Shown here: piece by piece, positions 16,992 to 47,556 of the stretch
Position numbering within the stretch: the stretch's first letter is position 1
How the letters are laid out: each line of letters starts with the position of its first letter
IMG/VR virus record: IMGVR_UViG_3300024294_000597
From: a virus
DNA: 64,000 nucleotides
Direction: 5' to 3' (one strand)
The notes under the pieces: generated by a model
The model's input: the letters and a program-made list of their open reading frames with translations, nothing else
The model's database searches: none
What the model was told of the DNA's origin: nothing
Made by a program: the position numbers and the translations under genes

Positions 16992-17087
16992 ATCTTCCTC
17001 AACGTTCTGTTTTTTTAAAGTCAGTGATTTCTCACTGTCGTTAAGTTATAGTATTACTTATCTATTTATCATAATTGTCAGAAAGGC

Positions 17088-17119: not shown

Positions 17120-17146
17120 CCTTATATAGTATATAACAAGTCTAAC

Positions 17147-24191: not shown

Positions 24192-24208
24192 TCAAATTAT
24201 TCCTATTC

Positions 24209-28825: not shown

Positions 28826-28837
28826 ATCTGTGTTCCT

Positions 28838-29209: not shown

Positions 29210-29265
29210 TTATTCTCCAACCTTTTCGTAATTAACTTGTATAGTTCGTTCAATAATAACTATAC

Positions 29266-34030: not shown

Positions 34031-34032
34031 AA

Positions 34033-34563: not shown

Positions 34564-34707
34564 ACATATCTATTTATCTTTTTTGTTTCATGTTAAATAT
34601 TTATTTCTATTCTAACAGTATTAGTACATAATTGCAACCTAAAAAAGATAAGTAATATTGAGTGTAATGCTCATTTCTGAAAATCCCTCTTTAAGGAGGA
34701 AAACAAT

Positions 34708-35448
34708 ATGGCACGAAAAAAACGTGTTGAAAAACATAATAACAAAGCAACAAATCGTAATAACGATTACGGTATAATCCCATTACATAAAAAAACAATT
34801 CCAACTATTTTACCCAGAAACGTATCACAAGAAGACTATCTATATCAGTTAGCTAATCCAGACAACAATATTGTATTTGCGATTGGTCCAGCTGGTACAG
34901 GTAAGACACTCCTATGTACGCAAATGGGTATAAAAGCATTCATGGAAAGAGAGGTGAAGAAAATAGTTATAACTCGTCCCGCTGTGTCGGTGGACGAGCA
35001 ACACGGGTTCTTGCCCGGTGACTTAAATGAAAAAATGTCACCATGGACGAGACCTATATTTGATATATTTGAGAAGCATTTTTCGATGCAACAAATCGAA
35101 ATGATGCTTGAGGAAAATTTGATTGAGATAGCCCCACTAGCATATATGCGTGGTCGCACATTTGAAAATTCGTGGATCATAGCTGATGAAATGCAGAATG
35201 CAACGAAATCTCAAATGAAAATGTTATTAACCAGAATAGGTGTTAATACAAAGATGATTGTAACAGGCGACTTAAAACAGCATGATAGAGGATTTTCAGA
35301 AAACGGTCTTTCAGATTTTGTCGAACTTGTACGCAACTACGAAAACGCTAAACTAAAACATATTAGTATTAGTAGGTTCGAGTTAATGGATGTTGAAAGA
35401 CATCCTGCGGTTACAGAAGTTTTAAAAATTTACGGAGAAGACGATTAA
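34708..35448 (+). CDS. phoH: PhoH family ATPase
   Basis: GPAGTGKT, GFLPG, PLAYMRGRTF, DEMQN, TGD..QHD. Confidence 0.95.
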   Translation: MARKKRVEKHNNKATNRNNDYGIIPLHKKTIPTILPRNVSQEDYLYQLANPDNNIVFAIGPAGTGKTLLCTQMGIKAFMEREVKKIVITRPAVSVDEQHGFLPGDLNEKMSPWTRPIFDIFEKHFSMQQIEMMLEENLIEIAPLAYMRGRTFENSWIIADEMQNATKSQMKMLLTRIGVNTKMIVTGDLKQHDRGFSENGLSDFVELVRNYENAKLKHISISRFELMDVERHPAVTEVLKIYGEDD

Positions 35449-35450
35449 AA

Positions 35451-35478
35451 GTGATGAGGGAGTTCGCTCCCTCATTAT
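35451..35478. terminator. Hairpin between convergent genes
   Basis: GTGATGAGGGAG-TTCG-CTCCCTCATTAT. Confidence 0.75.
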
Positions 35479-36059
35479 TACCTATGATTTGGTATAACGA
35501 TATCTACAATCTCAGACCAAGTATCAACAACCGGAATATCTTGTACATCTGCACCTACGCTGTGTGCATGACTTATAAGAATTGGTTTCAACCCATACTT
35601 GAGACCACAAACTGCATTCTCAGGCTTATCTTCAATCCAATACAGCCCTGTTCCTTCGTAAGGTAAAAGACCTTCGTCTTTATCAGCACCGGTATCTAAA
35701 CAAACAAGTTCAGTAAATACCCCTTTTCCAAATACATCATCTAAGTTTTGCTGTCTTAGTGCTTTTGTATTTTCATCTAAACTTAATGAAGTGACACAGT
35801 GAAAAGTGTAACCTGCTTCTACCAGAGCGGCAACACCGCTTCTTGCATCACGCAAGACAGGAAGATTAAGCATCCATGAACTATTGTTGAATTCTTTGAT
35901 TAGTTTTTTAACTTCAACTTTTTTCATAGCAAATACGTCTGCCATGTTATAGACACCTTCATTTTGTGTGTCATATCCTTTTGATTTCATCCATTGATAA
36001 AAAGAAGTTTCCCAATCGAGGAGAACCCCATCACAATCTGTCACTATAATTTTCTGCAT
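35478..36059 (-). CDS. HAD-family 5'(3')-nucleotidase
   Basis: TDCDGVLLDW and WIEDK. Confidence 0.8.
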   Translation of the reverse strand: MQKIIVTDCDGVLLDWETSFYQWMKSKGYDTQNEGVYNMADVFAMKKVEVKKLIKEFNNSSWMLNLPVLRDARSGVAALVEAGYTFHCVTSLSLDENTKALRQQNLDDVFGKGVFTELVCLDTGADKDEGLLPYEGTGLYWIEDKPENAVCGLKYGLKPILISHAHSVGADVQDIPVVDTWSEIVDIVIPNHR

Positions 36060-36086
36060 GTTTTTTGATTTCTTTCTGATTACTTA

Positions 36087-36117
36087 TATATAATAGCATG
36101 ATTCGTAATTTTGTCAA
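36087..36117 (-). promoter_or_regulatory. Sigma70 promoter with spacer CGAATC (GANTC at 36100)
   Basis: TTGACA AAATTA CGAATC ATGC TATTAT. Confidence 0.8.
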
Positions 36118-36122
36118 GTTTT

Positions 36123-37487
36123 TCACACTTTTTCTTTAGTTACTAATCTCCAAACTTCGGGCAAAGCAGTCTTAATATTTTTGCCTCTACGTTTGTCCAA
36201 TAAAATAGAATACTTATAAAAATCTAATATTTCTGTTCTACTTGGTTCTTGTGCTATTAATGACTTTCCTTTACGAACAGTTTCTTTCAACATACGTATC
36301 GTAGTCATGTTCCAATGATTACCTGCTTGATAGTGTTTATCTTTTATATCACCTAACCATTTTTCGATTCTTCTAAACAAATCTTTATCTCCTTCACCGT
36401 TATTTTCATGAGGGAAAAGTTTTGGTTGGAGATATGCAGGATACATTACATTATTAAGATAAATGTTTATACCTTCTCCTTGATTAATCAACAAGGCTTT
36501 TTGTATGTTATCTCCTCTTATTTCTAAGCATAAGTCTAACCACCATTGAAACATTTCAGGAATGTGATTGGCGTTATACACACTCAGCGTTGGTTCCCAT
36601 TTTACTTGAAAACCTTCATATTTCATTGATAATTCTAGCCAACTTCTGGCTGTTGCGTTTACAGTTTCCCAAGAACTTAAATGTCTCGTATAGTCATTTA
36701 CTTCCTCGGTTCCGTCAATGCTCAACGATATTTTTACTTCTTTAAATTGTTTCAACCTATTGATAATTTTATCCTTTGGTATCCAACTTGCATTTGTAAA
36801 AATATGCAAAGCAATATTCTTTGCGTAACCTGTTTCAATAATAAAGTCTACAATACTTCCGAACTTTGGATGTAACATTGGCTCACCGCCAACGAACTTT
36901 ATTCTATTAACATGTTCATAATCTTGTTTGTTATAGTCGATTTGTAGTTTCGTGTCTGTACCATACACTCCTCTACCAAACCCCATTTCATCATTTAACC
37001 ATCTATCATCTTCTTCCCACTTTGTACTTAATGAAGAAGAACATATATTACATGCAAGATTACAATAATTTCCTAAATTCATTTCAATATAAGTTAATTT
37101 AGGTGTTTGTATGTAATCTATTACTTCTGCCCAATCACCTTGGCTATCATGTGTTAAACCTGCATCAACTTTTTGTTCAAGCATTATCTCATTTGCTTGT
37201 TGTCGTAATGAATATATTCCTTGTTCTTCTTCTTCGTAACATTTCCAACAACCAGGATCTTTTTTTCCAGATAGTGAATTTTTTCTTAATTCATTCCATT
37301 TGTCTGAATGAAAGGTTTCATTGAAACTCTTTACTGGTTCCATTGGCCAAGCTACAGGATGATTTTTAGGGTCTTCCAAATCGCCTTTTTTATTATTATA
37401 TCTACAACAGGGATTACTTAATCTACCGTTCCAAAGTGCAACATGATTAAAGAAGTATTTGCAATAAGTTTTAGATGATATAGACAT
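36123..37487 (-). CDS. Radical SAM protein with N-terminal twitch/SPASM-like domain
   Basis: CNLACNIC, GGEP, SIDG; N-terminal C...PCC...CWKC. Confidence 0.88.
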   Translation of the reverse strand: MSISSKTYCKYFFNHVALWNGRLSNPCCRYNNKKGDLEDPKNHPVAWPMEPVKSFNETFHSDKWNELRKNSLSGKKDPGCWKCYEEEEQGIYSLRQQANEIMLEQKVDAGLTHDSQGDWAEVIDYIQTPKLTYIEMNLGNYCNLACNICSSSLSTKWEEDDRWLNDEMGFGRGVYGTDTKLQIDYNKQDYEHVNRIKFVGGEPMLHPKFGSIVDFIIETGYAKNIALHIFTNASWIPKDKIINRLKQFKEVKISLSIDGTEEVNDYTRHLSSWETVNATARSWLELSMKYEGFQVKWEPTLSVYNANHIPEMFQWWLDLCLEIRGDNIQKALLINQGEGINIYLNNVMYPAYLQPKLFPHENNGEGDKDLFRRIEKWLGDIKDKHYQAGNHWNMTTIRMLKETVRKGKSLIAQEPSRTEILDFYKYSILLDKRRGKNIKTALPEVWRLVTKEKV

Positions 37488-37720
37488 TATTTCTTCTTCT
37501 TTAAAATTACTCTGAATGCACCTGCGTTTCTATCTAATCTTCTAGTTTCTCTAACATAAGGATCCGCTTCGCACCATTTTTCAAATTCTTTCGACATTTC
37601 ACCCTGTCCTACTACAACTACTATTTGTTTATGCCCTTGCATATATGCGTCAACAGTAGAACTACGAAAACGTTTCCAACCATCATGTACTCTCAGACCA
37701 TGTAAATCAATTTTATGCAT
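37487..37720 (-). CDS. Stand-alone Smr domain protein
   Basis: IDLHG...VVVGQG...NAGA. Confidence 0.8.
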   Translation of the reverse strand: MHKIDLHGLRVHDGWKRFRSSTVDAYMQGHKQIVVVVGQGEMSKEFEKWCEADPYVRETRRLDRNAGAFRVILKKKK

Positions 37721-38153
37721 GAATATTCTTATCCCACGTAAACTTGGCAGAAAACATATTTACTCTGCTTGAATCTGGTGATAAGACAACATATGGCAAT
37801 CTTTCATTGATGAAAAATATCTTATTAGTTTGTAATTTAAAAGATTTTCCGTCTACTCGTATTTCAACATTACCTTGTGTTACTAGAAAAAATAGTCCTG
37901 TAGGTTCATCATAGTTTAAATTCATCTTTGAGTCACTTTGAAACGGTTCAGGAAATGTATCGGCACTTATATCAGTAATTGTAGTTTTTAAGATACTATT
38001 AATGGAATCTACAATCAATTTAGCGTCAGAGGTGTCTCCGCTTACAATCATTTTATTGATTTTATTACCAATAGGAGCTGATATTGTACCTAAAATCTTT
38101 GTACTAGGCATGTTGTATTCTGCGTTAAACTTATCTCTTTGTATTTTGCTCAT
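37713..38153 (-). CDS. Cupin-like hypothetical protein
   Basis: FFLVTQGNVEIRVDG...IFFIN. Confidence 0.45.
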   Translation of the reverse strand: MSKIQRDKFNAEYNMPSTKILGTISAPIGNKINKMIVSGDTSDAKLIVDSINSILKTTITDISADTFPEPFQSDSKMNLNYDEPTGLFFLVTQGNVEIRVDGKSFKLQTNKIFFINERLPYVVLSPDSSRVNMFSAKFTWDKNIHA

Positions 38154-38593
38154 CTTATGTTTATTTTTTCATTATAGAATTGGTTATATTTTTCTTTATT
38201 AAAGTTTATTTGATTAGTCATTAGATATGCTGATAATTCTATTATTTTTTCTTCAATCATATCAGGATGAATACAAATATAATTACCTTCCAGTTTATTT
38301 AGAAACTTATAGATTTCATCATTAATGTCTTGTGTATTGTATCTCCAGTTTCTCCTGCTCCATATCTTCATTTCCTTGGGAGATTCTGTATTATACTTAC
38401 CTTTGATAGTCCCATTGTGTAAACAGTCATATGGCTTGGTTAAACAAATTATATTACTATCACCGGGCTCTAATTCATCAAATTTAAAGAAACCATTTTT
38501 ATCCCAATCAAATGACTTATAATCATACGGGAGTAAACTTCCAATGAAGTCTTGAATGCCATCTTCAAAGTCAAATATATGTATACTAGCCAT
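38150..38593 (-). CDS. Hypothetical protein
   Basis: Coupled ORF in operon. Confidence 0.55.
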   Translation of the reverse strand: MASIHIFDFEDGIQDFIGSLLPYDYKSFDWDKNGFFKFDELEPGDSNIICLTKPYDCLHNGTIKGKYNTESPKEMKIWSRRNWRYNTQDINDEIYKFLNKLEGNYICIHPDMIEEKIIELSAYLMTNQINFNKEKYNQFYNEKINIR

Positions 38594-38596
38594 GTG

Positions 38597-38935
38597 TTAC
38601 TCAGTAGGTTGCTTTTCGCTTTTACCTTTATTAATCAGGCCGCCATCTTTGCATTCCTCGATAAATTTATTATAATGCTGAGGATATTTAATCATAACAT
38701 GTTGGACTATTTTATTATAGTCCTTTGTTTCAGCCGAATTCTTTTCTATTTTAGCATCCGTAAGATTTATAATTGTTGTAGAATGGTCCCAATATCGTTT
38801 ACGCAATCTTGTAACAAAATAACAATCTTCTATCATTGTCCATTTGCCTTTTTTGCCAAAGTCCTTCATTGATGTATTCTGACCTTCTGCAGGCCTAAAT
38901 GTGTGTGCTAAAACTATGTATGCTTTTTTTGCCAT
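38597..38935 (-). CDS. Hypothetical protein
   Basis: Coupled ORF in operon. Confidence 0.6.
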   Translation of the reverse strand: MAKKAYIVLAHTFRPAEGQNTSMKDFGKKGKWTMIEDCYFVTRLRKRYWDHSTTIINLTDAKIEKNSAETKDYNKIVQHVMIKYPQHYNKFIEECKDGGLINKGKSEKQPTE

Positions 38936-38936
38936 A

Positions 38937-39338
38937 TTATTCTATCGTAATCTTTGCTTTGTTAACTACTAACTTATTATTTTCAGTAATATTTATCATT
39001 GCCATAAACCAATCTTCTGAGATTATATAACTACTTGTATTTGTGCATTGTTCAATCACTTTTTCTAATATACTTTCTTTATAACCTGCAGGGTTAGGGT
39101 CTCCTATAATCACATAGTTGAATTTCTTGTCAGACACTTCGCTATCCCAATAATTGATTGCACCAGGCAAATCATTAGTAGTGTTTAGTGCTATTTTTAT
39201 TCCTTCACCTTCTTCGTATATAGACTTGAATGGGTTAACTGGTTCATTATCTTCGCAAAGTTTAATTACTTCTTTGTACAACATCAGTTTGTATTGGGAT
39301 TGTTTATCCTCTGAAATGATTACTTTTGGTTCATACAT
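38937..39338 (-). CDS. Hypothetical protein
   Basis: Coupled ORF in operon. Confidence 0.55.
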   Translation of the reverse strand: MYEPKVIISEDKQSQYKLMLYKEVIKLCEDNEPVNPFKSIYEEGEGIKIALNTTNDLPGAINYWDSEVSDKKFNYVIIGDPNPAGYKESILEKVIEQCTNTSSYIISEDWFMAMINITENNKLVVNKAKITIE

Positions 39339-39342
39339 TTTT

Positions 39343-40269
39343 TTACTTTGCTATATACTGTAACTCTAGCAATGTTGCACTTAGATTAATTTCAGGGTCA
39401 GCAACTAATGAGTGATTAACTAATCCATCACGAATGCACAATAATGCTTTGCCTTTTTTCATATCATCTTGTCCGAACCAGTCTAAGTTTTCATATAACT
39501 TACGATATACGCCTTCATATTCTTCCGCACGTGCTTTTGATACGATAAGTTTACGTGCTTCCGATACTTTTCCTAATTGAAATAGTGCTACATATTCTAG
39601 TATCCAATCGCTTTCACCACTTTCACCTTGACCAGGTTGTTGCAAAGCACCATCAACAATATTTTGTTGAACCATATTGATACATTTACGTAAATCAGGA
39701 TATGCTGACCTAACATAAACATCAAGTATTTCTAAATCTGGATTAATTCCTTCTGTGATAAGAATTTCAGCAACACGGGCTGTGAATTCATTCGTATCTA
39801 GTTTTTCAATATGATAACCTTGACAACGTGAATGAATTGCTGGAATAACTTTGTTTGGATAATTACATGTTAGAATAAATCTACATGTGGAAGAATATGT
39901 CTCCATCATATTACGTAGAATTGCTTGTGCGTTCTGTGATAGATAATCAGATTCATCTAGTAATACATATTTGAATTCACCACCAAAAGGAAGCGAACTA
40001 GCAAAACCATTAATCTTAGTACGCATTGTATCTACGTTGTTTTCGCTTGATGCATTGATAAACATTACATCACCATCATCAACACCAAGTTCTTTTAACA
40101 AAACTTTCGCTAATGTAGTTTTACCTGTACCTGCTGAGCCTGAGAACAGTAGATGCGGAATCGCTCCACTTTCTACCCAACTCTGTACTTGATGTTTTTG
40201 TTTCTCATCCCTGAAAACATACTGACCTATGTTACTTGGTCGATACTTTTCTACCCACAATTCTTTCAA
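39343..40269 (-). CDS. Sliding clamp loader subunit (RFC/gp44-like)
   Basis: LWVEKYRP, GSAGTGKTT, LLDESD, SRC. Confidence 0.93.
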   Translation of the reverse strand: MKELWVEKYRPSNIGQYVFRDEKQKHQVQSWVESGAIPHLLFSGSAGTGKTTLAKVLLKELGVDDGDVMFINASSENNVDTMRTKINGFASSLPFGGEFKYVLLDESDYLSQNAQAILRNMMETYSSTCRFILTCNYPNKVIPAIHSRCQGYHIEKLDTNEFTARVAEILITEGINPDLEILDVYVRSAYPDLRKCINMVQQNIVDGALQQPGQGESGESDWILEYVALFQLGKVSEARKLIVSKARAEEYEGVYRKLYENLDWFGQDDMKKGKALLCIRDGLVNHSLVADPEINLSATLLELQYIAK

Positions 40270-40381
40270 GTTCTTCTCCGTTTTCGTTTATAAATTTTCT
40301 AGCAATGTCATTGACGGGCTTATCATCTGAAAGCAGTGGCATCCATTCGAATTCTTCCTGCATTTCAGTGTCTTTTGACAT
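40232..40381 (-). CDS. Small hypothetical protein
   Basis: Start placed after TTGACA(40415)-17 nt-TATAAT(40392). Confidence 0.45.
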   Translation of the reverse strand: MSKDTEMQEEFEWMPLLSDDKPVNDIARKFINENGEELERIVGRKVSTK

Positions 40382-40423
40382 TCTTTTGTTTATTATAATT
40401 CCTTTTTTGAACTTTGTCAAGAC

Positions 40424-40843
40424 TTAATCCTCTTTATCCCATGGCATGGGATTATCACGTTGATTATAGTACTCTTTTTTCATTTCAAGCATTGCACGAT
40501 ATGGAACACGATGTTCAAAACAGGCCGCATGTGCGGCTGACATTCTTACGAATCTTTGCCCATCCCTATTCTTGGGACCTACAAACATTTCAATACCTTT
40601 GGCTTTTCCCACCCATTCGTTCTGCCAATGTTCTATCATGTCTTCAAACGCTTCTTTATCCCAATAATACGTCATAGCAAAATTGTCAGAAACTTTTACT
40701 GTCATTTTCAAACGTTCTCGGTGTTTGAAATAGTATATCTTAATATCACTTTCGAATGGTTTAATATAATCAAATTGTTTTGAAAACTTATCCATTCTTT
40801 CAAATAGTGCATCTAAGTTTTCAGATTCTTTATTTACACTCAT
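40424..40843 (-). CDS. Hypothetical protein
   Basis: ATGA-coupled ORF. Confidence 0.6.
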   Translation of the reverse strand: MSVNKESENLDALFERMDKFSKQFDYIKPFESDIKIYYFKHRERLKMTVKVSDNFAMTYYWDKEAFEDMIEHWQNEWVGKAKGIEMFVGPKNRDGQRFVRMSAAHAACFEHRVPYRAMLEMKKEYYNQRDNPMPWDKED

Positions 40844-41031
40844 ATGTAATTTTCTATCCCACTATCTTGACCTAACCATTCTTTAACTTCTTCAATACGA
40901 TGGTATTTTAATGTTTTAGGTCTTTGTTGTTTTATTGTTTCTAAATGTAGTGTTGCTTCTTCCAATGTTTTAAATTTAGCAACCACTACTTCATTTTCAA
41001 CTCTCGGTGTGTAGATGATTTCAAAAGACAT
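40840..41031 (-). CDS. Hypothetical protein
   Basis: AGGA RBS. Confidence 0.55.
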   Translation of the reverse strand: MSFEIIYTPRVENEVVVAKFKTLEEATLHLETIKQQRPKTLKYHRIEEVKEWLGQDSGIENYI

Positions 41032-41040
41032 TTTATATTC

Positions 41041-41253
41041 CTATTCGTCTATTTTTGCAAATTCTGTTACAGGTTTGCCATTCTCATCAAATGTGCGTGT
41101 TTTAACCTTAAGATATCCGTTATTGTGAAGCATGTCAACCATACTTCCAGCACCCTGTTCTCTACCTACGTCCTTGCCCTTCATATATCCCATAACAAAT
41201 AGTATAAGTCCAAAAAGTACAGCAATATATCCTGGGTTTATTCCAAAATCCAT
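41041..41253 (-). CDS. Small single-TM protein
   Basis: GAGGAG RBS; sigma70 promoter upstream. Confidence 0.6.
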   Translation of the reverse strand: MDFGINPGYIAVLFGLILFVMGYMKGKDVGREQGAGSMVDMLHNNGYLKVKTRTFDENGKPVTEFAKIDE

Positions 41254-41312
41254 AAGTTTCTCCTCTGAGTTATATACATAATAATAACACTAAACACATA
41301 AAGTGTCAAGTG

Positions 41313-41741
41313 TTATTTTTTTAGTTTTTCTATTTCTTGTGAATTAGCGGCTATCTTCTCGTCTTGCACTTTGTCTATGAGCGCCTTCATCTTTAATGCT
41401 ACTTCCTCATCTGTGTCAACGTGTAGGTCTTTTTTGATAACTTTCTCTAATTTTAGTACTGGTATTCTTTCATTTGGAACATATCTCCATGTGTATCCTC
41501 TATCAGAATAAACACCAAATACAGTTTGTCTTGCACCAATCTTTACAATCATTGCTAGTTCGCCATCAAGTAGTACTTCATCGCCTTCATTAAATGCAGG
41601 ATCCATTTTGAATTTTAATCCTTTAGCCAATCCTGTAGCAAAGTCTTTAAACCATATGGCAACAACTAAAGATATTAAGACACCAATCCATGGTAGTAAG
41701 AAATCAGATAATTCCATGCTTAGTGAGTTAAGGTCTGTCAT
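41313..41741 (-). CDS. Minimal MscS-like channel protein
   Basis: KDFATGLAKGL...FNEGDEVLLDG...IVKIGARQT...VPN; start at MTDLNS after TATAAATA and GGGAGA. Confidence 0.7.
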   Translation of the reverse strand: MTDLNSLSMELSDFLLPWIGVLISLVVAIWFKDFATGLAKGLKFKMDPAFNEGDEVLLDGELAMIVKIGARQTVFGVYSDRGYTWRYVPNERIPVLKLEKVIKKDLHVDTDEEVALKMKALIDKVQDEKIAANSQEIEKLKK

Positions 41742-41794
41742 TTTGTCTCTCCCATTATAGTCGTATTTATACAATAATTGACATTGACGGCTAT

Positions 41795-41896
41795 TTGACG
41801 GTGTCAATTTTTTGAATGGATTTTATGTCAAATTTATTTTTTTACAATATAATATAATTTACGTAGAAAGCACGTTTCCTGTGTCAATTTTTTGAA
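41795..41896. promoter_or_regulatory. Repeated operator-like motif GTGTCAATTTTTTGAA
   Basis: Exact 16-mer at 41801 and 41881; partial copy at 41825; TTGAC-GGT-GTCAA palindrome at 41795. Confidence 0.5.
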
Positions 41897-42016
41897 CTTA
41901 AATGATAAATATTAACATTGAGTAAAGTTTGTACTTAAAGTATAAATTTACATGGTTAATAACTGAGCATGAATGTATTAAACACTTCATATCTTGGACT
42001 TAGAGGAGACACTTAC

Positions 42017-42607
42017 ATGAGCCTAAAAAAGAAATTTCTTTCTCATAATATTGCCTTGGCAACTATCTTTATTATATTAATGGGTGCTATTAGTATTCCT
42101 GTGTCTGCGGATGCGGATCCTATCGTTACTAATTCTACTAGTAATAGCACAGTTAAGTCTAATAATGATACCGACACTACCGTAAAAAGCCCACCACCTA
42201 GTGCGATATCGCCTTCCATTAATGGAAGTAATTCTGATTTATGTACTGTTGGTGTCAGTGGTGCAGTACAAACACAGATTTTAGGTGTGTCTACCGGGCA
42301 AACTTATAGGGATGCCAATTGTGAAAGGCTCAAACTTTCTAAAACACTATACGACATGGGTATGAAGGTCGCGGCGGTCTCAGTAATGTGCCAAGACCGA
42401 AGAGTGTTTGATGCTATGTCTATGGCAGGTACCCCTTGTCCATATAATGGTAAAATTGGCGAAGAAGCATATGAACTGTGGAAGAAAAATCCACAAGAAA
42501 TGCCTAAAAAGGTTTATGTAGATGATGAAAAGAGAATTGCAAAAGAAGGGATGCGTGAAGGGCTTACTATTGCAGGCGTTCTTGCTTTGCTGGCTTTCGC
42601 TCTGTAA
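42017..42607 (+). CDS. Secreted, C-terminally anchored Cys-containing protein
   Basis: GAGGAG RBS; signal peptide; DLC, NCER, MCQD, TPCP; C-terminal hydrophobic anchor. Confidence 0.7.
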   Translation: MSLKKKFLSHNIALATIFIILMGAISIPVSADADPIVTNSTSNSTVKSNNDTDTTVKSPPPSAISPSINGSNSDLCTVGVSGAVQTQILGVSTGQTYRDANCERLKLSKTLYDMGMKVAAVSVMCQDRRVFDAMSMAGTPCPYNGKIGEEAYELWKKNPQEMPKKVYVDDEKRIAKEGMREGLTIAGVLALLAFAL

Positions 42608-45600
42608 TATAGCATACGCAACCGATACTACTGCACCAGATAATCCAACAACTACTAGTCCAGATACCTTAGATTTAGATGATGGTACCATATCCAATCC
42701 AACATATGGTTGTCCTGCAGGTACCTCTGCGGCATATGTATATGGAAGCGGAAGTTCTGTAAGGTGGGGAGAGTGTCAAAATACATTTGCTATTTCTTAT
42801 GCAATTAACCAAGCACTACAAGGCACAGGCGTAAGTATAGACAAGGTTCACTATCAATGGAAGTATATTCATTGCTTTAATGAACCTGGTAAATTTTGTA
42901 GTGTTGATATTGAAGACAGAGTAAACCTCTCAACAGGTGAGATTACTGATGATACTTATTGGGACGAATTAGTTGTAGTTGTAGAAGTTACAGATTCTAG
43001 TGGTAACGTAGTTGAAACTAAAACATGGACTATGGATACATGGTATGACTGGACATCAAGCAATAGTCACAGTACTAATGAAGTACAAGAAGGTACAACT
43101 GTTTGGCAGATACATGAAGACAATATAGAAATTTACAATCATATAGATAAAGTAGGAACAATACGTACACCAAATGCATTAGGAGATGTTCGTTTTAGAA
43201 TTACTGGATACGATAAAGGTAATTGGGATGGTTATTACGGACCTATCGTAAACGATATAAAAACTTGGTTTACTTATAGAGCAAACCCTTGTAATGATAC
43301 TGCACTTTATGATCCAAGTTGTCCAGGATATGCTACTGCATATGCGGCATGGGAATATGACCAAAATTGTGCCGCTAATGCACTTTATGATCCCGGCTGT
43401 CCTGGGTATTCTACTGCATATTTCAATCAACAGTGTAGTGCAGACCCATTATATGATAGTGGTTGTGATGGCTACGCAGAAGCATATTACAATCAACAAT
43501 GTAGTGCGGATCCACTTTACGATAGTGGATGTGATGGATATGCCGCGGCTTACTTGACTCAACAATGTAATTTAGACCAACATCATAGCAGTGAATGTCC
43601 ATATTATAATTGGGCTATTACTACTGTCACAGCCGGTTGGGGAGAAAATGCGGCAGGACAAGGTAGTGATTTTATTGAAATAGTTAAAGCCTCTAGCACT
43701 GATAGGTGGTGGGCATTATGGTATAACGAATCAGAAATAGACGCAGGCGATTGGGTTGCTAAATGTAAGACTTACGATGATGGATGTGAAGATGCAGTTA
43801 TTAGTAGTATTACTTTTAATTATAGTAATGGTCAGCATTATGCATTTCTATACACAAAAGACACAGATGGTAATACCTTTATCCCTACAAACGGTGACAA
43901 ATATAGATTTTTAACAAAGACACAGTTAGATACATACTGTGATTCGAGTTCACTTTATAGTCCAATGTGTGATGGATATGCGGCCGCATACTTTACACAA
44001 CAATGCACAGCCAATCCACTTTACAACAGTGAATGCGATGGCTATGCGGCGGCTTACTTAGAACAGCAATGTGGTATAAGTGCATTACACTCTACGTCAT
44101 GTTCAGGTTATGCCGCGGCTTACTTGGCTCAGCAATGTAGTTTAAATCCTTTACATGATAGTTCGTGCAGTGGATATGCAACCGCATATTTCAATCAACA
44201 ATGTAGTTTAGATGCTTTATACAACAGCGAATGTCCAGGTTATGACACTGCATATTTCAATCAACAATGTAGTTTAGATGCAACATACAACAGTGAATGT
44301 CCGGGCTATGAAAGTGCTTACTTTACACAACAATGTAATGCAGACCCATTATACAATAGTGAATGTAGTGGATACGATACAGCATATTTTACACAGCAAT
44401 GTACAGCCAATCCACTTTATAACAGTGAATGTAGTGGATACGATACAGCATACTTTAATCAGCAATGTGGATTAAGTGCATTATACAACAGCGAATGTGA
44501 TGGATATGATGAGGCTTACTTGTCTCAACAGTGTGGCATCAACACGTTATATGATAGTAGTTGTGATGGATATGAAGAAGCATATACACTGGCACAGTGT
44601 AATGAGAATCCATTGTATGCTGAAAGTTGCGAAGGTTACGACATATCATATTTCAATCAGCAATGTAGCTTTGACCCACAATATGATACACAGTGTCCAG
44701 GTTATCAAGCACCTGTAGAAGATACTGTTGACCCAGTTGCTATTGATGATGGAATAAGCACAGGTGATGCAGTTGTTGATAGTATTATTGCAACACCAGA
44801 CTTACCAACTGTAAACTTAATACCTGAACTTCCAGCTATTGAAGTTGAGATTTTACCAGTTACTCCAATAGAACCAGAAGTAGTAGAGGTTCCGGTTCCA
44901 GATGCTGTGGAACAAATTGAAATAGAAATTGAAGCAGAGATAGAACAACTTGAAATGGAATTAGAAGTTCCAGAAGACACATCATCAAATGATACAATGG
45001 AACTAGAAGTAGAGACAGAAGAAAGTGAGCCAGAGACAATAGAAGATATAGCAGAGGAAAGTACAGAAAATGAGGACACTAGTGAGGAGTCTACAGAAAG
45101 TAACGAAGAAGAAAGTACAGAAGAAGAAAGTACAGAAGAAGAAAGTACAGAAGAAGAATCAACTGACGAAGAAAATGAATCTGAGGAAAATACTGATGAA
45201 TCTGAGAATGAAGAAAGTGAGGAAGAGTCAGAAGAAGTAGAAGAATCTGAAAGTGAGGAAGAAGCTACAGAAGAAGATGAAGCGGAAGAAGAGTCTGAAA
45301 GTGAAGAATCTGAAACTAAGTCTGATACAAAAACAGAAGCAAAACCTAAGTCTACTAAAAAGCAACCATTAACTAAAGAACAAAAAAGAAAAGCAAAAAT
45401 TAAAAAGATGAAACAAATTATCAAAGATAAACTAAAACAATTAGCAGATGTTATGGGTAAAGCAGTGTCGCTAGAGCAACAACAGGCTCTACAGGCACAA
45501 ATAACTGCACTTATAAATTACGTACCTGGATTCAACGCATATAGCGAATCTTATATACCAGGCAGAGATTTTTATCTACCAGATGATATCTACTTAGATA

Positions 45601-45698
45601 AAAAGATACCGGAAAATCAGAGAGGATTACGCAATGGTTTAGCAAGTGAAATATTACATGAGAAAATGGTTGATATGCAATATGAGGGGATGGAATAA
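42522..45698 (+). CDS. Large secreted protein with 17 C-x9-C repeats and a Glu-rich stalk
   Basis: Signal peptide, ~22-aa repeats, acidic region, basic segment. Confidence 0.8.
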   Translation: MMKRELQKKGCVKGLLLQAFLLCWLSLCNIAYATDTTAPDNPTTTSPDTLDLDDGTISNPTYGCPAGTSAAYVYGSGSSVRWGECQNTFAISYAINQALQGTGVSIDKVHYQWKYIHCFNEPGKFCSVDIEDRVNLSTGEITDDTYWDELVVVVEVTDSSGNVVETKTWTMDTWYDWTSSNSHSTNEVQEGTTVWQIHEDNIEIYNHIDKVGTIRTPNALGDVRFRITGYDKGNWDGYYGPIVNDIKTWFTYRANPCNDTALYDPSCPGYATAYAAWEYDQNCAANALYDPGCPGYSTAYFNQQCSADPLYDSGCDGYAEAYYNQQCSADPLYDSGCDGYAAAYLTQQCNLDQHHSSECPYYNWAITTVTAGWGENAAGQGSDFIEIVKASSTDRWWALWYNESEIDAGDWVAKCKTYDDGCEDAVISSITFNYSNGQHYAFLYTKDTDGNTFIPTNGDKYRFLTKTQLDTYCDSSSLYSPMCDGYAAAYFTQQCTANPLYNSECDGYAAAYLEQQCGISALHSTSCSGYAAAYLAQQCSLNPLHDSSCSGYATAYFNQQCSLDALYNSECPGYDTAYFNQQCSLDATYNSECPGYESAYFTQQCNADPLYNSECSGYDTAYFTQQCTANPLYNSECSGYDTAYFNQQCGLSALYNSECDGYDEAYLSQQCGINTLYDSSCDGYEEAYTLAQCNENPLYAESCEGYDISYFNQQCSFDPQYDTQCPGYQAPVEDTVDPVAIDDGISTGDAVVDSIIATPDLPTVNLIPELPAIEVEILPVTPIEPEVVEVPVPDAVEQIEIEIEAEIEQLEMELEVPEDTSSNDTMELEVETEESEPETIEDIAEESTENEDTSEESTESNEEESTEEESTEEESTEEESTDEENESEENTDESENEESEEESEEVEESESEEEATEEDEAEEESESEESETKSDTKTEAKPKSTKKQPLTKEQKRKAKIKKMKQIIKDKLKQLADVMGKAVSLEQQQALQAQITALINYVPGFNAYSESYIPGRDFYLPDDIYLDKKIPENQRGLRNGLASEILHEKMVDMQYEGME
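43290..44700 (+). repeat. Coding 66-nt tandem repeats (5 + 12 units, YFNQQCxxxPLYNSECxGYxxA)
   Basis: Units counted in the translation; the two blocks are separated by a ~110-aa insert. Confidence 0.9.
45108..45165 (+). repeat. 15-nt coding repeat GAAGAAAGTACAGAA (EEEST)
   Basis: Directly visible tandem copies. Confidence 0.85.
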
Positions 45699-46027
45699 TG
45701 TTAAATTGTTTAGTATTGGGTTTGGCACTTTCAGCACATGTGGGATTAGAAGGAAAATATAACAATCTTCACCCATATGCAATGTGTGAAACCGAAAAGA
45801 CTATTGTAGGAACTTACTATAATAGTTTAGACCGATGGAGTCTTATTGGGGCATATAAATATAGTCTTAATAAAGACCTGTCATTAGATATTGGCGTTGC
45901 CACTGGATATGACTATGATGTTGTACCAATGGCTAGATTAAGATATAAAAACTTATTCGTTATGCCAACTGTTGAAGATGAAGAAAGGACTGGTGTCGTG
46001 TTTGGCATACAGTTTGAATTAAAATAG
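45698..46027 (+). CDS. Small outer-membrane beta-barrel (PagP-like fold, putative)
   Basis: SAH, YYNS, GVATGY, alternating strands, C-terminal FGIQF signal. Confidence 0.55.
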   Translation: MLNCLVLGLALSAHVGLEGKYNNLHPYAMCETEKTIVGTYYNSLDRWSLIGAYKYSLNKDLSLDIGVATGYDYDVVPMARLRYKNLFVMPTVEDEERTGVVFGIQFELK

Positions 46028-46036
46028 GAGCAACTT

Positions 46037-46546
46037 ATGAGTGACAAAACAACAGTAGAAGTTGGTGGAGTTAAATTCACTGGTGGAAAGTTATTTTTAG
46101 TTATAACAATTCTGAGTACACTTGGTGGCGCCGCATGGGGAGGCTTTGAATTTTATAATGACTATAGAAATATGAAAGCCAAGATAGAACGCTATGTAGC
46201 ACCAGACTTAAGTGGAATTAGAGCAGAACTACAAGTAGTTAACACAAAACTTGATGAAGCATTAGACTATTCTAAAGATATTAAAAACGGATTACGTGAT
46301 GATATTGTTAGATTGGAACGTATTGTAGATTCAATAGAAGATGATATTAACAAAGTAGAAGATAATGTACGTGAACAGATTGATTTAGCTGACCAGCGTT
46401 TTGAAAATAAACGTGACCAGTTACTTACAGACTATGAACAAAAAGCAGATAGTTTACGCACAAGCACTGATTTAAAACTTAAAGAACTAGAAACTAGATT
46501 GAATAAACGTTTGCAAAGGGCGTTAGACAATCCATTAGCAAATTAA
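46037..46546 (+). CDS. Single-TM coiled-coil protein
   Basis: TM followed by heptads; AGGAG RBS. Confidence 0.7.
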   Translation: MSDKTTVEVGGVKFTGGKLFLVITILSTLGGAAWGGFEFYNDYRNMKAKIERYVAPDLSGIRAELQVVNTKLDEALDYSKDIKNGLRDDIVRLERIVDSIEDDINKVEDNVREQIDLADQRFENKRDQLLTDYEQKADSLRTSTDLKLKELETRLNKRLQRALDNPLAN

Positions 46547-46550
46547 TAAT

Positions 46551-46628
46551 TGGTCGGGGTGGTAGGATTCGAACCTACGCTCTCCTGGTCCCAAACCAGG
46601 CGCTTTAGCCAGACTAAGCTACACCCCG
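46551..46628 (-). tRNA. tRNA-Pro(TGG)
   Basis: CGGGGTGTAGCTTAGTCTGGCTAAAGCGCCTGGTTTGGGACCAGG...ACCA. Confidence 0.95.
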
Positions 46629-46632
46629 ATAA

Positions 46633-46977
46633 TTATGGTAAACAAGGTTTAATAGAATTCTTATAATACAAAACCGTTTTATCATTTGTTGTTTCTACAC
46701 GATGGATTACCGATTCTTTTGGTCGTCCAAAACATTTATTCAAACTTTGACCTGGAAAACGATAACGAGTATTCATTTTTAGAAACTCCCACTGTTTTGC
46801 ATTTCGAATTCTAATATTCTCATTTCTTTTGCTATCAATACAAAAAGCAACATCTGACAAGTTATCATAATCAGCCATACACTTTTTTGCAATAAAGTTT
46901 TTAGCATCCGCGCCCGTAGAGATTAGTAAACACGTAATCAATACGGTTGCAAATTGAGCCGATAATTTAGTATCCAT
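46633..46977 (-). CDS. Secreted hypothetical protein
   Basis: Signal peptide and Cys pairs. Confidence 0.55.
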   Translation of the reverse strand: MDTKLSAQFATVLITCLLISTGADAKNFIAKKCMADYDNLSDVAFCIDSKRNENIRIRNAKQWEFLKMNTRYRFPGQSLNKCFGRPKESVIHRVETTNDKTVLYYKNSIKPCLP

Positions 46978-47135
46978 TATTCAGGCTCCACCCAAGGATA
47001 ACAAGGAATAATACTTTGCTTACAATAACGAGCATTATCTACCAATAGGAATGGAACTCCTACAATAAAGAACAAAATAATAGCAAATGCTTTACCTAGT
47101 CCTTTTAGTGTGCAATAATTAGTTTGTTCACTCAT
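46977..47135 (-). CDS. Small membrane protein
   Basis: Start at MSEQTN; one TM. Confidence 0.5.
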   Translation of the reverse strand: MSEQTNYCTLKGLGKAFAIILFFIVGVPFLLVDNARYCKQSIIPCYPWVEPE

Positions 47136-47556
47136 GTTCGCCACCTCGGCCTCGACCAAAGCCACCAAAATATTGTGGCTTGCGTTTTGCTGTTTCGAAT
47201 GTTGCTACAGTAATAGCAATGGCACCAAGTAATAGTGTATGTAGCATCATACTGAACACTCCTGCCCACATGCTACCTACAATAATAGCAAATACAATAC
47301 ACCACATCCATGCTAATACTTGCATAATCATATGTCGTGTACTAAAATCTGGAATATTACTTAGTGGATTCTTTTCGTGATCCATTACTACATTCCAACT
47401 GTTAAAAATAAATTCTCTCATTGATATTACCTTTCTAAATATTATCTTTGTAGGATAATGAGCATCCATATCATCACGATATTCAATCGCATCATGTACA
47501 TCATGGAATTCTTGGGATATTTTTTTATCCTTAAACCATGCCGTTACTTTATACAT
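47128..47556 (-). CDS. Membrane protein (NPLSNIPD...QVLAWMWC family)
   Basis: Two TM; AAGGA RBS. Confidence 0.6.
   Translation of the reverse strand: MYKVTAWFKDKKISQEFHDVHDAIEYRDDMDAHYPTKIIFRKVISMREFIFNSWNVVMDHEKNPLSNIPDFSTRHMIMQVLAWMWCIVFAIIVGSMWAGVFSMMLHTLLLGAIAITVATFETAKRKPQYFGGFGRGRGGEHE

What the first reader, a model, noticed from the sequence alone, without database searches (positions are those of the whole stretch)
42017..46546. Four-gene envelope cassette with a 17-repeat disulfide protein, a small beta-barrel and a membrane coiled coil
Seen: a plus-strand island ending at tRNA-Pro in which all four products have export or membrane signals. They are a Cys-rich anchored protein, a 1058-aa protein (globular domain, 5+12 C-x9-C repeats of ~22 aa split by an inserted domain, Glu-rich stalk, basic segment), an OM barrel-like protein and an IM coiled coil. 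Inference: a trans-envelope assembly displayed by the infected cell, e.g. for superinfection exclusion, grazer avoidance or metal/nutrient capture. I do not recognise the repeat as a named family.
Basis: partly seen in the sequence, partly recalled or inferred. Interest (0 to 1): 0.72.

Follow-up and report, generated by a model that had tools for sequence, protein, structure and literature searches.

The report
Exported three-gene phage envelope module
A giant ocean phage carries a tightly linked set of genes for proteins sent into the host's cell envelope. The set is shared by thousands of aquatic phages, including cultured SAR11 phages, matches no described system, and is not the phage's membrane-fusing lysis pair (spanin), which sits 9 kb away in the same window.

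Summary
Window 42017-46546 (+) encodes four genes, here called A to D.
- A: 196 aa, with a signal peptide, a domain with four invariant Cys, and a C-terminal membrane anchor.
- B: 1058 aa, with a signal peptide, a lectin-like beta-sandwich, 5+12 C-x9-C repeats of 22 aa split by a fast-evolving insert, a Glu-rich disordered tract, a basic helix and a conserved end domain.
- C: 109 aa, a possible PagP-like outer-membrane protein.
- D: 169 aa, with a membrane anchor, a coiled coil and an invariant C-terminal ALDNPLA.

The conserved unit is A-B-D. It keeps the same order in about 78 IMG/VR loci and occurs in podo-, sipho-, T4-like and jumbo phages, including the cultured Pelagibacter phages HTVC115P, 033P, 202P, Baldr and Mosig. 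C is an insert found in about a quarter of loci. No protein matches Pfam, NCBIfam, PADLOC or PDB, and the families are found only in phages.

In small phages the module lies beside holin-like, endolysin or spanin genes, or just before the terminase. In T4-like carriers it follows a late promoter. This window also holds a canonical overlapped spanin pair (32546-33407, minus strand), so A-B-D is not a spanin substitute.

Best reading (about 0.4, inferred): an inner-membrane-anchored periplasmic stalk complex that acts around lysis. Superinfection exclusion or receptor masking remains open. A cell-surface trans-envelope assembly is not supported. This scan has found the same module before on other DNA (e1-3261130, e1-5406388).

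The parts
41941..41948 (+). TATAAATT, a one-mismatch copy of the T4-type late promoter box, 69 nt upstream of the ATG of A. It is a weak candidate only.
   Evidence: Sequence read. The exact TATAAATA box lies within 100 nt upstream of A in 18 of 53 non-redundant related loci, against 0.028 expected. The box is not conserved in the close relative G001.
42017..42607 (+). Gene A, 196 aa. It has a Sec signal peptide (about aa 1-33), a Ser/Thr- and Pro-rich N-terminal stretch, a conserved core (aa ~60-155) with four invariant Cys (76, 102, 125, 141), and a C-terminal hydrophobic anchor (aa ~181-196).
   Evidence: The 49-sequence alignment A2 gives the invariant columns. AlphaFold shows a helical core at 100-160 with pLDDT about 90. 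There is no fold match: Z <= 3.5 and Foldseek E > 2. phrog_20531, function unknown, E 5e-16. dN/dS 0.17 against G001.
42522..42620 (+). Signal peptide of B (aa 1-33). Its coding sequence overlaps the 3' end of A by 86 nt in another frame.
   Evidence: (helix 3-28). The A/B overlap is conserved in related loci.
42639..43286 (+). B head (aa 40-255): a lectin/CBM-like beta-sandwich.
   Evidence: pLDDT > 90. Foldseek matches the Fbs1 sugar-binding domain, CBM27, the BT0996-C CBM and Bd1399 at E 4e-5 to 3e-4 with target TM-score 0.4-0.5. Homologues in cultured phages give weak CBM_4_9 hits. dN/dS 0.21.
43287..43625 (+). B repeat block 1: five 22-aa C-x9-C units (aa 256-368).
   Evidence: Cys, Gly-Tyr and Gln-Gln positions are invariant in alignment A1.
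43626..43937 (+). B inserted alpha/beta domain (aa 369-472), the fastest-evolving part of the cassette.
   Evidence: pLDDT 76-88. Only 40% aa identity and dN/dS 0.83 against G001, while the flanking parts give 0.08-0.23.
43938..44726 (+). B repeat block 2: twelve 22-aa C-x9-C units (aa 473-735). The repeats contain no Lys or Arg.
   Evidence: G001 has 11 units in total against 17 here. Copy number ranges from 4 to 23 in 50 non-redundant loci.
44727..45362 (+). B Pro/Val/Glu linker and Glu/Ser/Thr-rich disordered tract (aa 736-947).
   Evidence: pLDDT < 50. 50% Asp/Glu and net charge -70 over aa 796-947.
45363..45698 (+). B basic helix and conserved C-terminal domain (aa 948-1058), plus the stop codon. 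This is the only part of B shared by all versions of the module.
   Evidence: Helices 952-998 and 1033-1055. Invariant Q987, Y1007 and Q1053. dN/dS 0.085. Retained in the repeat-less B of HTVC115P, 202P, 033P, Baldr and Mosig.
45698..46027 (+). Gene C, 109 aa: an accessory, possibly PagP-like small outer-membrane beta protein.
   Evidence: phrog_3600 'PagP' at E 6e-13. Atlas feature score 0.91 to PagP clusters. No Pfam PagP hit. About half of the family ends in F/Y-x-F. Only 32 close clusters are known. Present in about 17 of 78 loci.
46037..46546 (+). Gene D, 169 aa. It has an N-terminal membrane segment (aa ~19-39, nt 46091-46153), a conserved juxtamembrane FE-Y-DY...APDLS stretch, a coiled coil of variable length, and an invariant C-terminal ALDNPLA (aa 162-168, nt 46520-46540).
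   Evidence: Alignment A3. Only generic coiled-coil matches in Pfam, PDB and PADLOC. dN/dS 0.08.
46551..46628 (-). tRNA-Pro (tgg), which marks the right boundary of the island.

Best explanation
The finding is one copy of a widespread, phage-only, three-gene envelope module (A-B-D). Here it carries a lineage-specific PagP-like insert (C).

Shown:
- All three core products carry export or membrane signals.
- They are inherited together across unrelated phage types.
- They evolve under purifying selection.

Inferred architecture:
- D sits in the inner membrane, N-terminus in and C-terminus out. It projects a coiled coil of variable length into the periplasm, ending in the invariant peptide ALDNPLA.
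- B is exported by Sec and folds in the oxidising periplasm. It forms a strongly acidic stalk: a lectin-like head, a rod of 17 helix-loop units whose paired Cys are expected to form disulfides, a hypervariable insert, a Glu-rich flexible tract, then a basic helix and a conserved end domain.
- That end domain, and/or the small A protein (four invariant Cys, probably two disulfides, itself membrane-tethered in this lineage), docks on D.
- The result would be an inner-membrane-anchored periplasmic stalk whose variable head engages a glycan of the wall or outer envelope.

Inferred role: it is made late and acts at or around host lysis, as an accessory to the holin-endolysin-spanin pathway and not a replacement for it. 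Possible jobs are coupling, timing or completing envelope breakdown, or dealing with envelope debris.
For: Co-inheritance. A, B and D lie in the same order in all complete loci of 78 IMG/VR hits. The same holds in metagenome contigs of 55-322 kb. It also holds in cultured phages of four body plans: HTVC115P, HTVC202P, HTVC033P, Baldr, Mosig and uvMED S28-C10, with reduced forms in CRP-207 and CRP-810.

Family size. B has at least 2559 relatives. A has 1999 cluster-50 representatives, all 76-370 aa.

Export. Signal peptides are found in 48 of 49 A and 60 of 62 B homologues. A has four invariant Cys, and the sampled repeat Cys of B (eight checked positions) are invariant or nearly so.

Topology of D. 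Some homologues have N-terminal extensions of about 130 aa with no signal peptide, which must stay cytoplasmic.

Structure. Searches (B; A).

Lysis neighbourhood:
- S28-C10: holin-like 3-TM protein, then A, B, D, then terminase, in the T7 gp17.5-19 slot.
- HTVC033P: amidase endolysin, a 128-aa membrane protein (phrog_2524, unknown function; holin-like only on my reading of its sequence), two small genes, then A, B, D.
- MW202481: A, B, then a holin-like protein and a lysozyme.
- HTVC202P and Baldr: A, B, D directly before the large terminase subunit.
- L066, L049 and L053-55: a canonical i-/o-spanin pair directly upstream of A.
- Holin-like 2-TM genes lie inside or next to the module in about 9 loci.

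Late timing. An exact TATAAATA box lies upstream of A in 18 of 53 loci, against 0.028 expected.

Selection. dN/dS is 0.08-0.35 for all four genes against the complete relative G001.
Against: - No experiment and no homology to any protein of known function supports the role. It rests on neighbourhood alone, and regions next to lysis cassettes are also classic sites for unrelated accessory ('moron') genes.
- In the jumbo phages, including this window, the module is an isolated counter-oriented island. It lies 9 kb from the spanins, and in G001 about 165 kb from the only Phage_lysozyme hit.
- This window has only an imperfect late box, which is not conserved in G001.
- No complex was modelled, so who binds whom is a guess.
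- The phage already has a full spanin pair, so what extra lysis step is needed is unclear.
- A-like domains occur alone, in early or middle regions of Achromobacter N4-like phages and in Ralstonia jumbo phages. That fits host-takeover or exclusion roles better.
Confidence: 0.4

Rival explanations
1. Superinfection exclusion or receptor and debris masking. The inner-membrane-anchored, strongly acidic brush with a variable lectin-like head either intercepts incoming phages in the periplasm, or is released at lysis and covers receptors so that progeny are not lost on debris or on already infected cells.
For: - The module is phage-only and is shared by unrelated phages that infect the same hosts (SAR11, roseobacters), as expected for a host-envelope or phage-versus-phage function.
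- The head type differs between lineages, and the inserted domain of B evolves almost neutrally or under diversifying pressure (dN/dS 0.83, 40% identity), while its neighbours are conserved.
- Mature B up to the basic helix has a net charge of about -157 and no Lys or Arg in its repeats.
- Accessory genes include a lipid-A-modifier-like protein (C) and lipoproteins.
- Stand-alone A-like proteins sit in early or middle regions of N4-like phages.
Against: - The T4-type late promoter and the late-region position in T7-like and lambda-like carriers are unusual for exclusion genes of the Imm/Sp type, which are early.
- There are no PADLOC hits beyond coiled-coil noise.
- The core has no route for B to reach the cell surface before lysis.
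- Nothing has been tested.
Confidence: 0.25
2. One reading: a four-part trans-envelope assembly (inner-membrane coiled coil, outer-membrane barrel, displayed repeat protein) shown on the surface of the infected cell.
For: - All four genes are adjacent and co-oriented.
- C gives PagP-like outer-membrane leads, and about half of its family ends in an F/Y-x-F beta-signal-like C-terminus.
- B looks like a fibre with a lectin head.
Against: - C is absent from about 75% of loci and from every cultured carrier, and other unrelated genes or none occupy its place.
- At 109 aa, C is too small for a translocating barrel and lacks a canonical signal peptide.
- PagP-type barrels are enzymes, not secretion pores (established knowledge).
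- The core contains no autotransporter, two-partner-secretion or secretin-like component.
Confidence: 0.08
3. A non-canonical spanin. D would be the i-spanin, and A and/or B would replace the outer-membrane lipoprotein partner, so the module would do the outer-membrane disruption step of lysis.
For: D has the i-spanin layout: N-terminal membrane segment, periplasmic coiled coil and a conserved C-terminal contact motif. The module sits in the T7 gp18.5/18.7 slot in S28-C10 and before the terminase in three other phages. Earlier follow-ups in this scan named spanins as the closest known system.
Against: - This window encodes its own canonical overlapped pair: an i-spanin at 32931-33407 (phrog_739) and a lipobox o-spanin at 32546-33004 (phrog_812).
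- The same pair lies immediately upstream of A in L066, L049 and L053-55.
- D matches no spanin PHROG.
- No lipobox ORF lies in or beside D in the window. Only 7 of the 84 D-family ORFs scanned had any lipobox-like ORF within 150 nt, and 3 of those belong to the separate canonical spanin pair of L053-55.
- A has an SPase-I type signal, not a lipobox.
Confidence: 0.05
4. Virion component: B would be a fibre or decoration protein of the phage particle.
For: B is long and modular, with a lectin-like head and a repeat rod, like many receptor-binding proteins. In S28-C10 the module follows the tail-fibre genes.
Against: A and B carry Sec signal peptides, conserved in 48 of 49 and 60 of 62 homologues, and D has a membrane anchor. 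B has 43 Cys; 34 of them sit in the 17 C-x9-C pairs, which suggests disulfides that need an oxidising compartment. Tailed-phage particles assemble in the cytoplasm (established knowledge). There are no PHROG structural hits.
Confidence: 0.03

Closest known systems
Two-component spanins (lambda Rz/Rz1, T4 PseT.3/PseT.2, T7 gp18.5/18.7)
   Same: D shares the i-spanin layout: a type II inner-membrane anchor, a periplasmic coiled coil and a conserved C-terminal contact end. The module is late and lies in or beside lysis cassettes in small phages.
   Different: There is no lipoprotein partner and no match to spanin families. The conserved membrane and juxtamembrane region of D is unlike a simple anchor. 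Two further exported proteins are obligatory. The carrier phage has a canonical spanin pair of its own.
T4 periplasmic and envelope accessory proteins (RI antiholin, Sp/spackle, Imm)
   Same: These are phage-made proteins exported to, or anchored in, the envelope of the infected cell. They tune lysis timing or block superinfection and do not build virions. This comparison rests on established knowledge and was not tested here.
   Different: There is no sequence or fold relation. Those proteins are small and single, and mostly early. Here there is a three-protein set with a stalk protein of 460-1160 aa and a late promoter.
TonB/TolA-type periplasm-spanning proteins
   Same: An inner-membrane anchor plus an extended, charge-patterned (acidic then basic) spacer and a conserved C-terminal domain. 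One B homologue is annotated 'tonB' in GenBank.
   Different: Neither the window's B nor the B homologue annotated 'tonB' gives any significant Pfam hit, so no TonB C-terminal domain was detected. In B the anchor is on a separate protein, and B itself is Sec-exported. No ExbBD/TolQR-like partner is present.
PagP lipid A palmitoyltransferase (for C only)
   Same: A small beta-rich protein with an aromatic C-terminal motif. It matches phrog_3600, annotated PagP, and protein-language-model neighbours are PagP clusters.
   Different: At 109 aa it is about two thirds of the length of a PagP barrel. There is no Pfam PF07017 match and no canonical signal peptide. Catalytic residues could not be checked.
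Mu gp25 releasin (DUF2730)
   Same: A small lysis-region protein with an N-terminal membrane segment and a helical domain. The D homologue of S28-C10 is annotated DUF2730 in GenBank.
   Different: There is no PF10805 hit for D or for that homologue. The releasin is N-out/C-in with a cytoplasmic domain (PMC9239132), whereas D is inferred to be N-in/C-out.

Membership tests
Two-component spanin | The i-spanin has an N-terminal membrane segment and a periplasmic coiled coil. | tested here: met
   D has one N-terminal hydrophobic segment followed by a coiled coil. The N-in/C-out topology is inferred from long signal-less N-terminal extensions in homologues.
Two-component spanin | A partner o-spanin: a small lipobox lipoprotein encoded embedded in, overlapping or adjacent to the i-spanin. 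| tested here: not met
   There is no lipobox ORF in or within 150 nt of D in the window. Only 7 of the 84 D-family ORFs scanned had any lipobox-like ORF nearby, and 3 of those belong to a separate canonical spanin pair.
Two-component spanin | Profile match to known spanin families. | tested here: not met
   D has no spanin PHROG at E <= 0.1. The window's own pair at 32546-33407 matches phrog_739 and phrog_812, 'Rz-like spanin'.
Unimolecular spanin (T1 gp11 type) | An N-terminal lipobox signal plus a C-terminal membrane segment on one protein. | tested here: not met
   A has the C-terminal segment but an SPase-I type signal without Cys. In the lipobox scan of 60 non-redundant module loci, only one A homologue (L024) had a lipobox, and a third of the A family lacks the C-terminal segment.
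PagP (Pfam PF07017), for C | Profile match to the PagP family. | tested here: inconclusive
   There is no Pfam hit at E <= 1 and none in the relative's whole genome. However, phrog_3600 'PagP' hits at E 6e-13 over the last third of that profile, and 27 of 30 Atlas neighbours are PagP clusters at score 0.91.
PagP (Pfam PF07017), for C | An eight-stranded outer-membrane barrel with a His/Asp/Ser active site. | not tested
His14, His25, Asn42 and Ser43 are invariant in the family.
DUF2730 / Mu releasin, for D | PF10805 profile match and N-out/C-in topology. | tested here: not met
   There is no hit for D or for the S28-C10 homologue annotated DUF2730. The topology is opposite to that described in PMC9239132.
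TonB, for B | A TonB C-terminal domain and an N-terminal membrane anchor. | tested here: not met
   There are no TonB-family Pfam hits for B or for the homologue annotated 'tonB'. B has a cleavable signal peptide, not an anchor.
Carbohydrate-binding module / lectin-like beta-sandwich, for the B head | Jelly-roll fold similar to solved sugar-binding domains. | tested here: met
   Foldseek E 4e-5 to 3e-4, probability 1.0 and target TM-score 0.4-0.5 to the Fbs1 sugar-binding domain, CBM27 and BT0996-C. This is a match at fold level only, and sugar binding was not tested. CBM_4_9 hits in homologues fall below the cut-off.
CHCH twin C-x9-C domain | Two antiparallel helices, each containing one C-x9-C, cross-linked by two disulfides. 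| tested here: not met
   In the model the first Cys ends a 12-residue helix and the second lies in the following loop. Units are stacked in tandem with period 22. There is no Pfam CHCH hit.
Known anti-phage defence proteins (PADLOC) | Profile match. | tested here: not met
   None for A, B or C. D gives only coiled-coil-level matches to ZorA/Leo tails at E 0.002-0.02.

The most novel reading that the evidence does not exclude
A-B-D is a previously undescribed class of phage envelope machinery, carried by a large share of aquatic phages of SAR11, roseobacters and other Proteobacteria. It would be an inner-membrane-anchored periplasmic stalk complex that performs a step no current model includes. 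That step could be a fourth component of Gram-negative lysis, needed in Mg/Ca-rich seawater. Alternatively it could be a periplasmic barrier against superinfecting phages.
Probability: 0.45. Interest if true: 0.82.

Novelty: categorically new. Interest (0 to 1): 0.7.

Why it matters
SAR11 and its phages are among the most abundant biological entities in the ocean, yet how these phages handle the host envelope is almost unannotated. This module is present in cultured pelagiphages of four body plans and in thousands of metagenomic phages. It takes up to about 10% of a 32-40 kb genome and is under purifying selection, so it must matter for fitness.

If it acts in lysis, the three-step holin-endolysin-spanin model is incomplete for marine hosts. 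If it is a superinfection barrier, it bears on co-infection and competition among ocean phages.

Cultured carriers (HTVC115P, 033P, 202P, Baldr, Mosig, CRP-207, CRP-810) make the question testable. The 22-aa Cys-pair helix-loop repeat and the four-Cys domain of A also appear to be new structural families.

Tried and rejected
- Sequence libraries. Pfam, NCBIfam, PHROGs and PADLOC on all four proteins gave nothing with a known function, except the PagP lead for C. Pfam on 62 B homologues gave only single chance hits.
- Solved structures by profile. Searches for A, D and C returned noise or generic coiled coils.
- Fold searches for A (Foldseek PDB, VIA wide, BFVD) found no known fold; the only BFVD matches at E <= 0.001 were its own uncharacterised phage relatives.
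- Megablast and tblastn of B against cultured phages found nothing, probably because of low-complexity filtering. A and D were used as probes instead.
- Cellular homologues of A. All 29 'genome' hits are phage contigs in metagenome bins of unrelated phyla, or one single-cell genome.
- Domain fusions of A in 1.8 billion representatives: none among the 150 best hits listed.
- Conserved flanking genes: none. Flanks hold homing endonucleases, gp32 and the like.
- Length compensation between B and the D coiled coil: none found, rho 0.11.
- 'Lysozyme' next to the module in CRP-810 and CRP-207. These are mis-annotated D homologues, so that argument was dropped.
- DUF2730 and TonB annotations of homologues were not reproduced.
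- The 16-bp repeats upstream of A were considered as operators of the cassette. They read better as leftward early-type promoters.
- The holin identity of neighbouring 2- and 3-TM proteins could not be confirmed by PHROGs.
- No whole genome is held for the window, so the complete relative G001 was used.

Full report
WHAT IS THERE

The window is part of an uncultured marine jumbo phage. Its clamp loader (39343-40269, minus strand) is 58% identical to that of Pseudomonas phage PA5oct. The whole window is collinear, at 72-87% nucleotide identity (mostly 80-87%), with a complete 342,607-bp IMG/VR genome with terminal repeats, here called G001.

On a mostly minus-strand background, four plus-strand genes fill 42017-46546. 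They end at tRNA-Pro. I call them A (196 aa), B (1058 aa), C (109 aa) and D (169 aa). The start of B overlaps the end of A by 86 nt.

- B has 17 C-x9-C motifs in register, 5 + 12, with a period of 22 residues.
- It has a tract that is 50% Asp/Glu with net charge -70, then a Lys-rich segment.
- A has four Cys and a hydrophobic C-terminus.
- D has one N-terminal membrane segment and a coiled coil.

The one soft point is C. Its hydrophobic N-terminus has no basic n-region in any of 20 relatives and contains invariant residues, so a cleaved signal peptide is doubtful.

STRUCTURES

The AlphaFold model of B was built on 62 sequences (mean pLDDT 70). It shows, in order:
- a signal helix;
- a confident beta-sandwich at 40-255 (pLDDT > 90);
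- repeat units of a 12-residue helix plus a 10-residue loop (pLDDT 70-88);
- a small alpha/beta insert at 369-472;
- a disordered acidic tract;
- C-terminal helices at 952-998 and 1033-1055.

The head resembles solved sugar-binding jelly rolls: the Fbs1 sugar-binding domain, CBM27, a Bacteroides CBM and Bdellovibrio Bd1399. Foldseek gives E 4e-5 to 3e-4 and target TM-score 0.4-0.5. This is a fold-level likeness only.

The repeat is not a CHCH twin C-x9-C. The first Cys closes a helix and the second lies in the loop.

A folds into a small helical core (residues 100-160, pLDDT about 90). No match was found in the PDB by Foldseek or by an exhaustive structural aligner (Z <= 3.5), and BFVD matches at E <= 0.001 are only its own uncharacterised phage relatives.

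None of the four proteins matches Pfam, NCBIfam, PADLOC or PDB sequences meaningfully.

THE CONSERVED UNIT IS A-B-D

B has at least 2559 relatives in metagenomes. I called ORFs and ran iterated profile searches over 78 IMG/VR loci. A lies directly upstream of B, and D downstream, in essentially every locus that is complete on that side.

C is present in only about 17 loci. Elsewhere B is followed directly by D, or by other small envelope proteins. These include membrane-plus-coiled-coil proteins, secreted Cys proteins, two-TM holin-like proteins and lipoproteins.

Flanking genes are not conserved, so A-B-D moves as a unit.

A is the best conserved member, with 33 invariant columns including the four Cys. 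It has 1999 cluster-50 representatives, and all 150 best hits listed are 76-370 aa with no fusions. Its only 'cellular' hits are phage contigs in bins of unrelated phyla, plus one single-cell genome.

D has a conserved membrane and juxtamembrane region, a coiled coil whose length varies by insertions, and an invariant C-terminal ALDNPLA. Homologues with N-terminal extensions of about 130 residues and no signal peptide imply an N-in/C-out topology.

Repeat number in B ranges from 4 to 23, and is zero in several cultured phages (see the next section). In the repeat-less pelagiphage versions (HTVC115P, 202P, 033P, Baldr, Mosig), B still has a signal peptide, a beta-sandwich head, a charged linker, a basic helix and the conserved end domain. 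The roseophage B-position proteins are much reduced and are described under 'Cultured carriers and host range'. So the end domain is the constant part of B, and the rod is optional.

The C-terminal anchor of A and the acidic tract of B occur together in one large subtype and are both absent in another. This may simply reflect ancestry.

SELECTION

I compared the window with G001 by dN/dS.

| Gene or part | dN/dS |
|---|---|
| A | 0.17 |
| B (whole) | 0.35 |
| C | 0.11 |
| D | 0.08 |
| B end domain | 0.085 |
| B head | 0.21 |
| B repeats | 0.22 |
| B acidic stalk | 0.56 |
| B insert (369-472) | 0.83 |

The insert is only 40% identical between the two phages. G001 has 11 repeats against 17 here. 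All four are therefore real, constrained genes, with one hypervariable domain.

CULTURED CARRIERS AND HOST RANGE

A and D homologues identify the module in these phages:
- Pelagibacter phages HTVC115P (gp54, gp53, gp49), HTVC202P (gp24-26), HTVC033P (gp46-44), Baldr and HTVC023P;
- the T4-like Pelagibacter phage Mosig;
- the T7-like uvMED S28-C10.

Roseobacter phages CRP-207 and CRP-810 carry A and D homologues, with a shorter protein in the B position that did not match the B profile.

No cyanophage, vibriophage or enterobacterial phage among 50,697 records has it.

A stand-alone A-like domain also ends 300-360-aa secreted low-complexity proteins. These occur in Ralstonia phages RSP15, RSL1 and RsoM2USA, and in the Achromobacter N4-like phages JWAlpha and JWDelta, where the gene lies in the early or middle region.

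CONTEXT AND TIMING

In small phages the module sits in or beside the lysis region.
- S28-C10: tail fibre..., a 3-TM holin-like protein, A, B, D, two small genes, large terminase. This is the T7 gp17.5-19 slot.
- HTVC033P: an amidase endolysin and a 128-aa membrane protein (phrog_2524, unknown function; holin-like only on my reading of its sequence) lie three genes upstream of A.
- MW202481: A and B are followed by a holin-like protein and a lysozyme.
- HTVC202P and Baldr: A-B-D lies immediately before the terminase.
- L066, L049 and L053-55: a canonical spanin pair lies directly upstream of A.

The holin calls rest on topology only. PHROGs gave them no function. Two GenBank 'lysozyme' labels next to the module, CRP-810 gp51 and CRP-207 gp73, are in fact D homologues.

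The exact T4 late box TATAAATA lies within 100 nt upstream of A in 18 of 53 non-redundant loci. The expected count per window is 0.028. This window has only TATAAATT at 41941, and G001 does not conserve it, so timing in this phage is not established.

NOT THE SPANIN

A lipobox scan of G001 led back to the window.
- 32931-33407 (minus strand) encodes a 158-aa protein with a membrane segment and coiled coil. It matches phrog_739, 'Rz-like spanin'.
- 32546-33004 (minus strand), overlapping it by 74 nt, encodes a 152-aa lipoprotein with the lipobox LLTSC. It matches phrog_812, 'Rz-like spanin'.

So the phage has a canonical overlapped spanin pair 9 kb from the cassette.

D matches no spanin family. 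There is no lipobox ORF in or next to D. A has an ordinary signal peptide, not a lipobox. Membership in the two-component or unimolecular spanins is therefore tested and not met, although D works like an i-spanin in layout.

The DUF2730 (Mu releasin) and TonB labels attached to homologues in GenBank were not reproduced. The releasin also has the opposite topology (PMC9239132).

INTERPRETATION

Shown: this is a phage-only, co-inherited, constrained set of three exported or membrane proteins. It is often late, and often lies by lysis genes.

Inferred: D anchors the set in the inner membrane and projects its C-terminal peptide into the periplasm. The conserved end domain of B and/or A dock there. 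B extends as an acidic stalk whose lectin-like head and hypervariable insert bind an envelope glycan or another variable ligand.

I rate 'a periplasmic stalk complex acting around lysis, accessory to the spanins' at about 0.4. I rate superinfection exclusion or receptor and debris masking at about 0.25. The hypervariable insert, the polyanionic brush, the lipid-A-modifier-like C and the early stand-alone A-like genes speak for that second reading.

A spanin substitute gets about 0.05 and a virion part about 0.03. The remainder is unknown.

C itself is best described as a possible PagP-like outer-membrane protein: phrog_3600 at E 6e-13 and Atlas score 0.91, but no Pfam PF07017 hit.

EARLIER NOTES

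This scan has met the same module on other genomes. Two follow-ups (e1-3261130, e1-5406388) independently reached 'undescribed three-gene envelope module, next to lysis genes, closest to spanins'.

My results agree on the module. They add the canonical spanin pair in the same phage, the per-domain selection pattern, the D topology argument, the accessory status and PagP lead for C, the promoter statistics, and the stand-alone A-like genes.

Noticed in passing
window 32546-33407 (-): A canonical overlapped two-component spanin. The i-spanin is 32931-33407 (158 aa, phrog_739). The o-spanin is 32546-33004 (152 aa, lipobox LLTSC, Pro-rich, phrog_812). The two genes overlap by 74 nt, and the pair sits between a J-domain protein and an IF1-like small gene, not in a lysis cassette.
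   Followed up: yes
window 41801-41816 and 41881-41896: Two exact 16-bp direct repeats (GTGTCAATTTTTTGAA), 80 bp apart, in the divergent intergenic region upstream of A. Both are conserved in the relative G001. Their reverse complement contains AAATTGACA, so they look like two leftward early-type promoters for the minus-strand genes.
   Followed up: partly
G001 (IMGVR_UViG_3300020469_003050, 342,607 bp; loci L126-L143): A complete genome with terminal repeats from a close relative of the window's phage. It is collinear with the window, with blocks at 72-87% nucleotide identity (mostly 80-87%). The window maps to G001 47159..1 and 342607..324845. Its only Phage_lysozyme hit is at 169777-170034, far from both the spanins and the module.
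   Followed up: partly
L084:6162-6584 (CRP-810 gp51) and L125:3292-3873 (CRP-207 gp73): Both are annotated 'lysozyme' in GenBank. They are in fact D homologues: a membrane segment, a coiled coil and a C-terminal NPL motif, with no muramidase domain.
   Followed up: yes
L065:8559-8921, L020:9909-10289, L060:9468-9809, L079:5764-6156: A recurrent lipoprotein family of 113-130 aa (lipobox, then PSFWDDN or a similar motif) lies inside or right next to the A-B-D module in several otherwise different phages.
   Followed up: no
L075:8295-9406, L079:8600-9648, L050:9448-10539: Tandem duplication of D: two paralogues, both ending in the NPL motif. They are followed by a 92-95-aa secreted Cys- and Pro-rich protein.
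   Followed up: partly
window 46633-46977 (-), 47128-47556 (-), 41313-41807 (-): More small envelope-type proteins flank the island: a 114-aa protein with a signal peptide and Cys, and two membrane proteins. None matches any PHROG.
   Followed up: partly
L001:9032-9969: In a 322-kb relative, two extra genes sit between C and D: a 95-aa Cys-rich protein and a 217-aa Cys-rich protein that starts with a C-x3-C-x2-C-like motif. A radical SAM/SPASM gene lies just downstream of D on the other strand.
   Followed up: no
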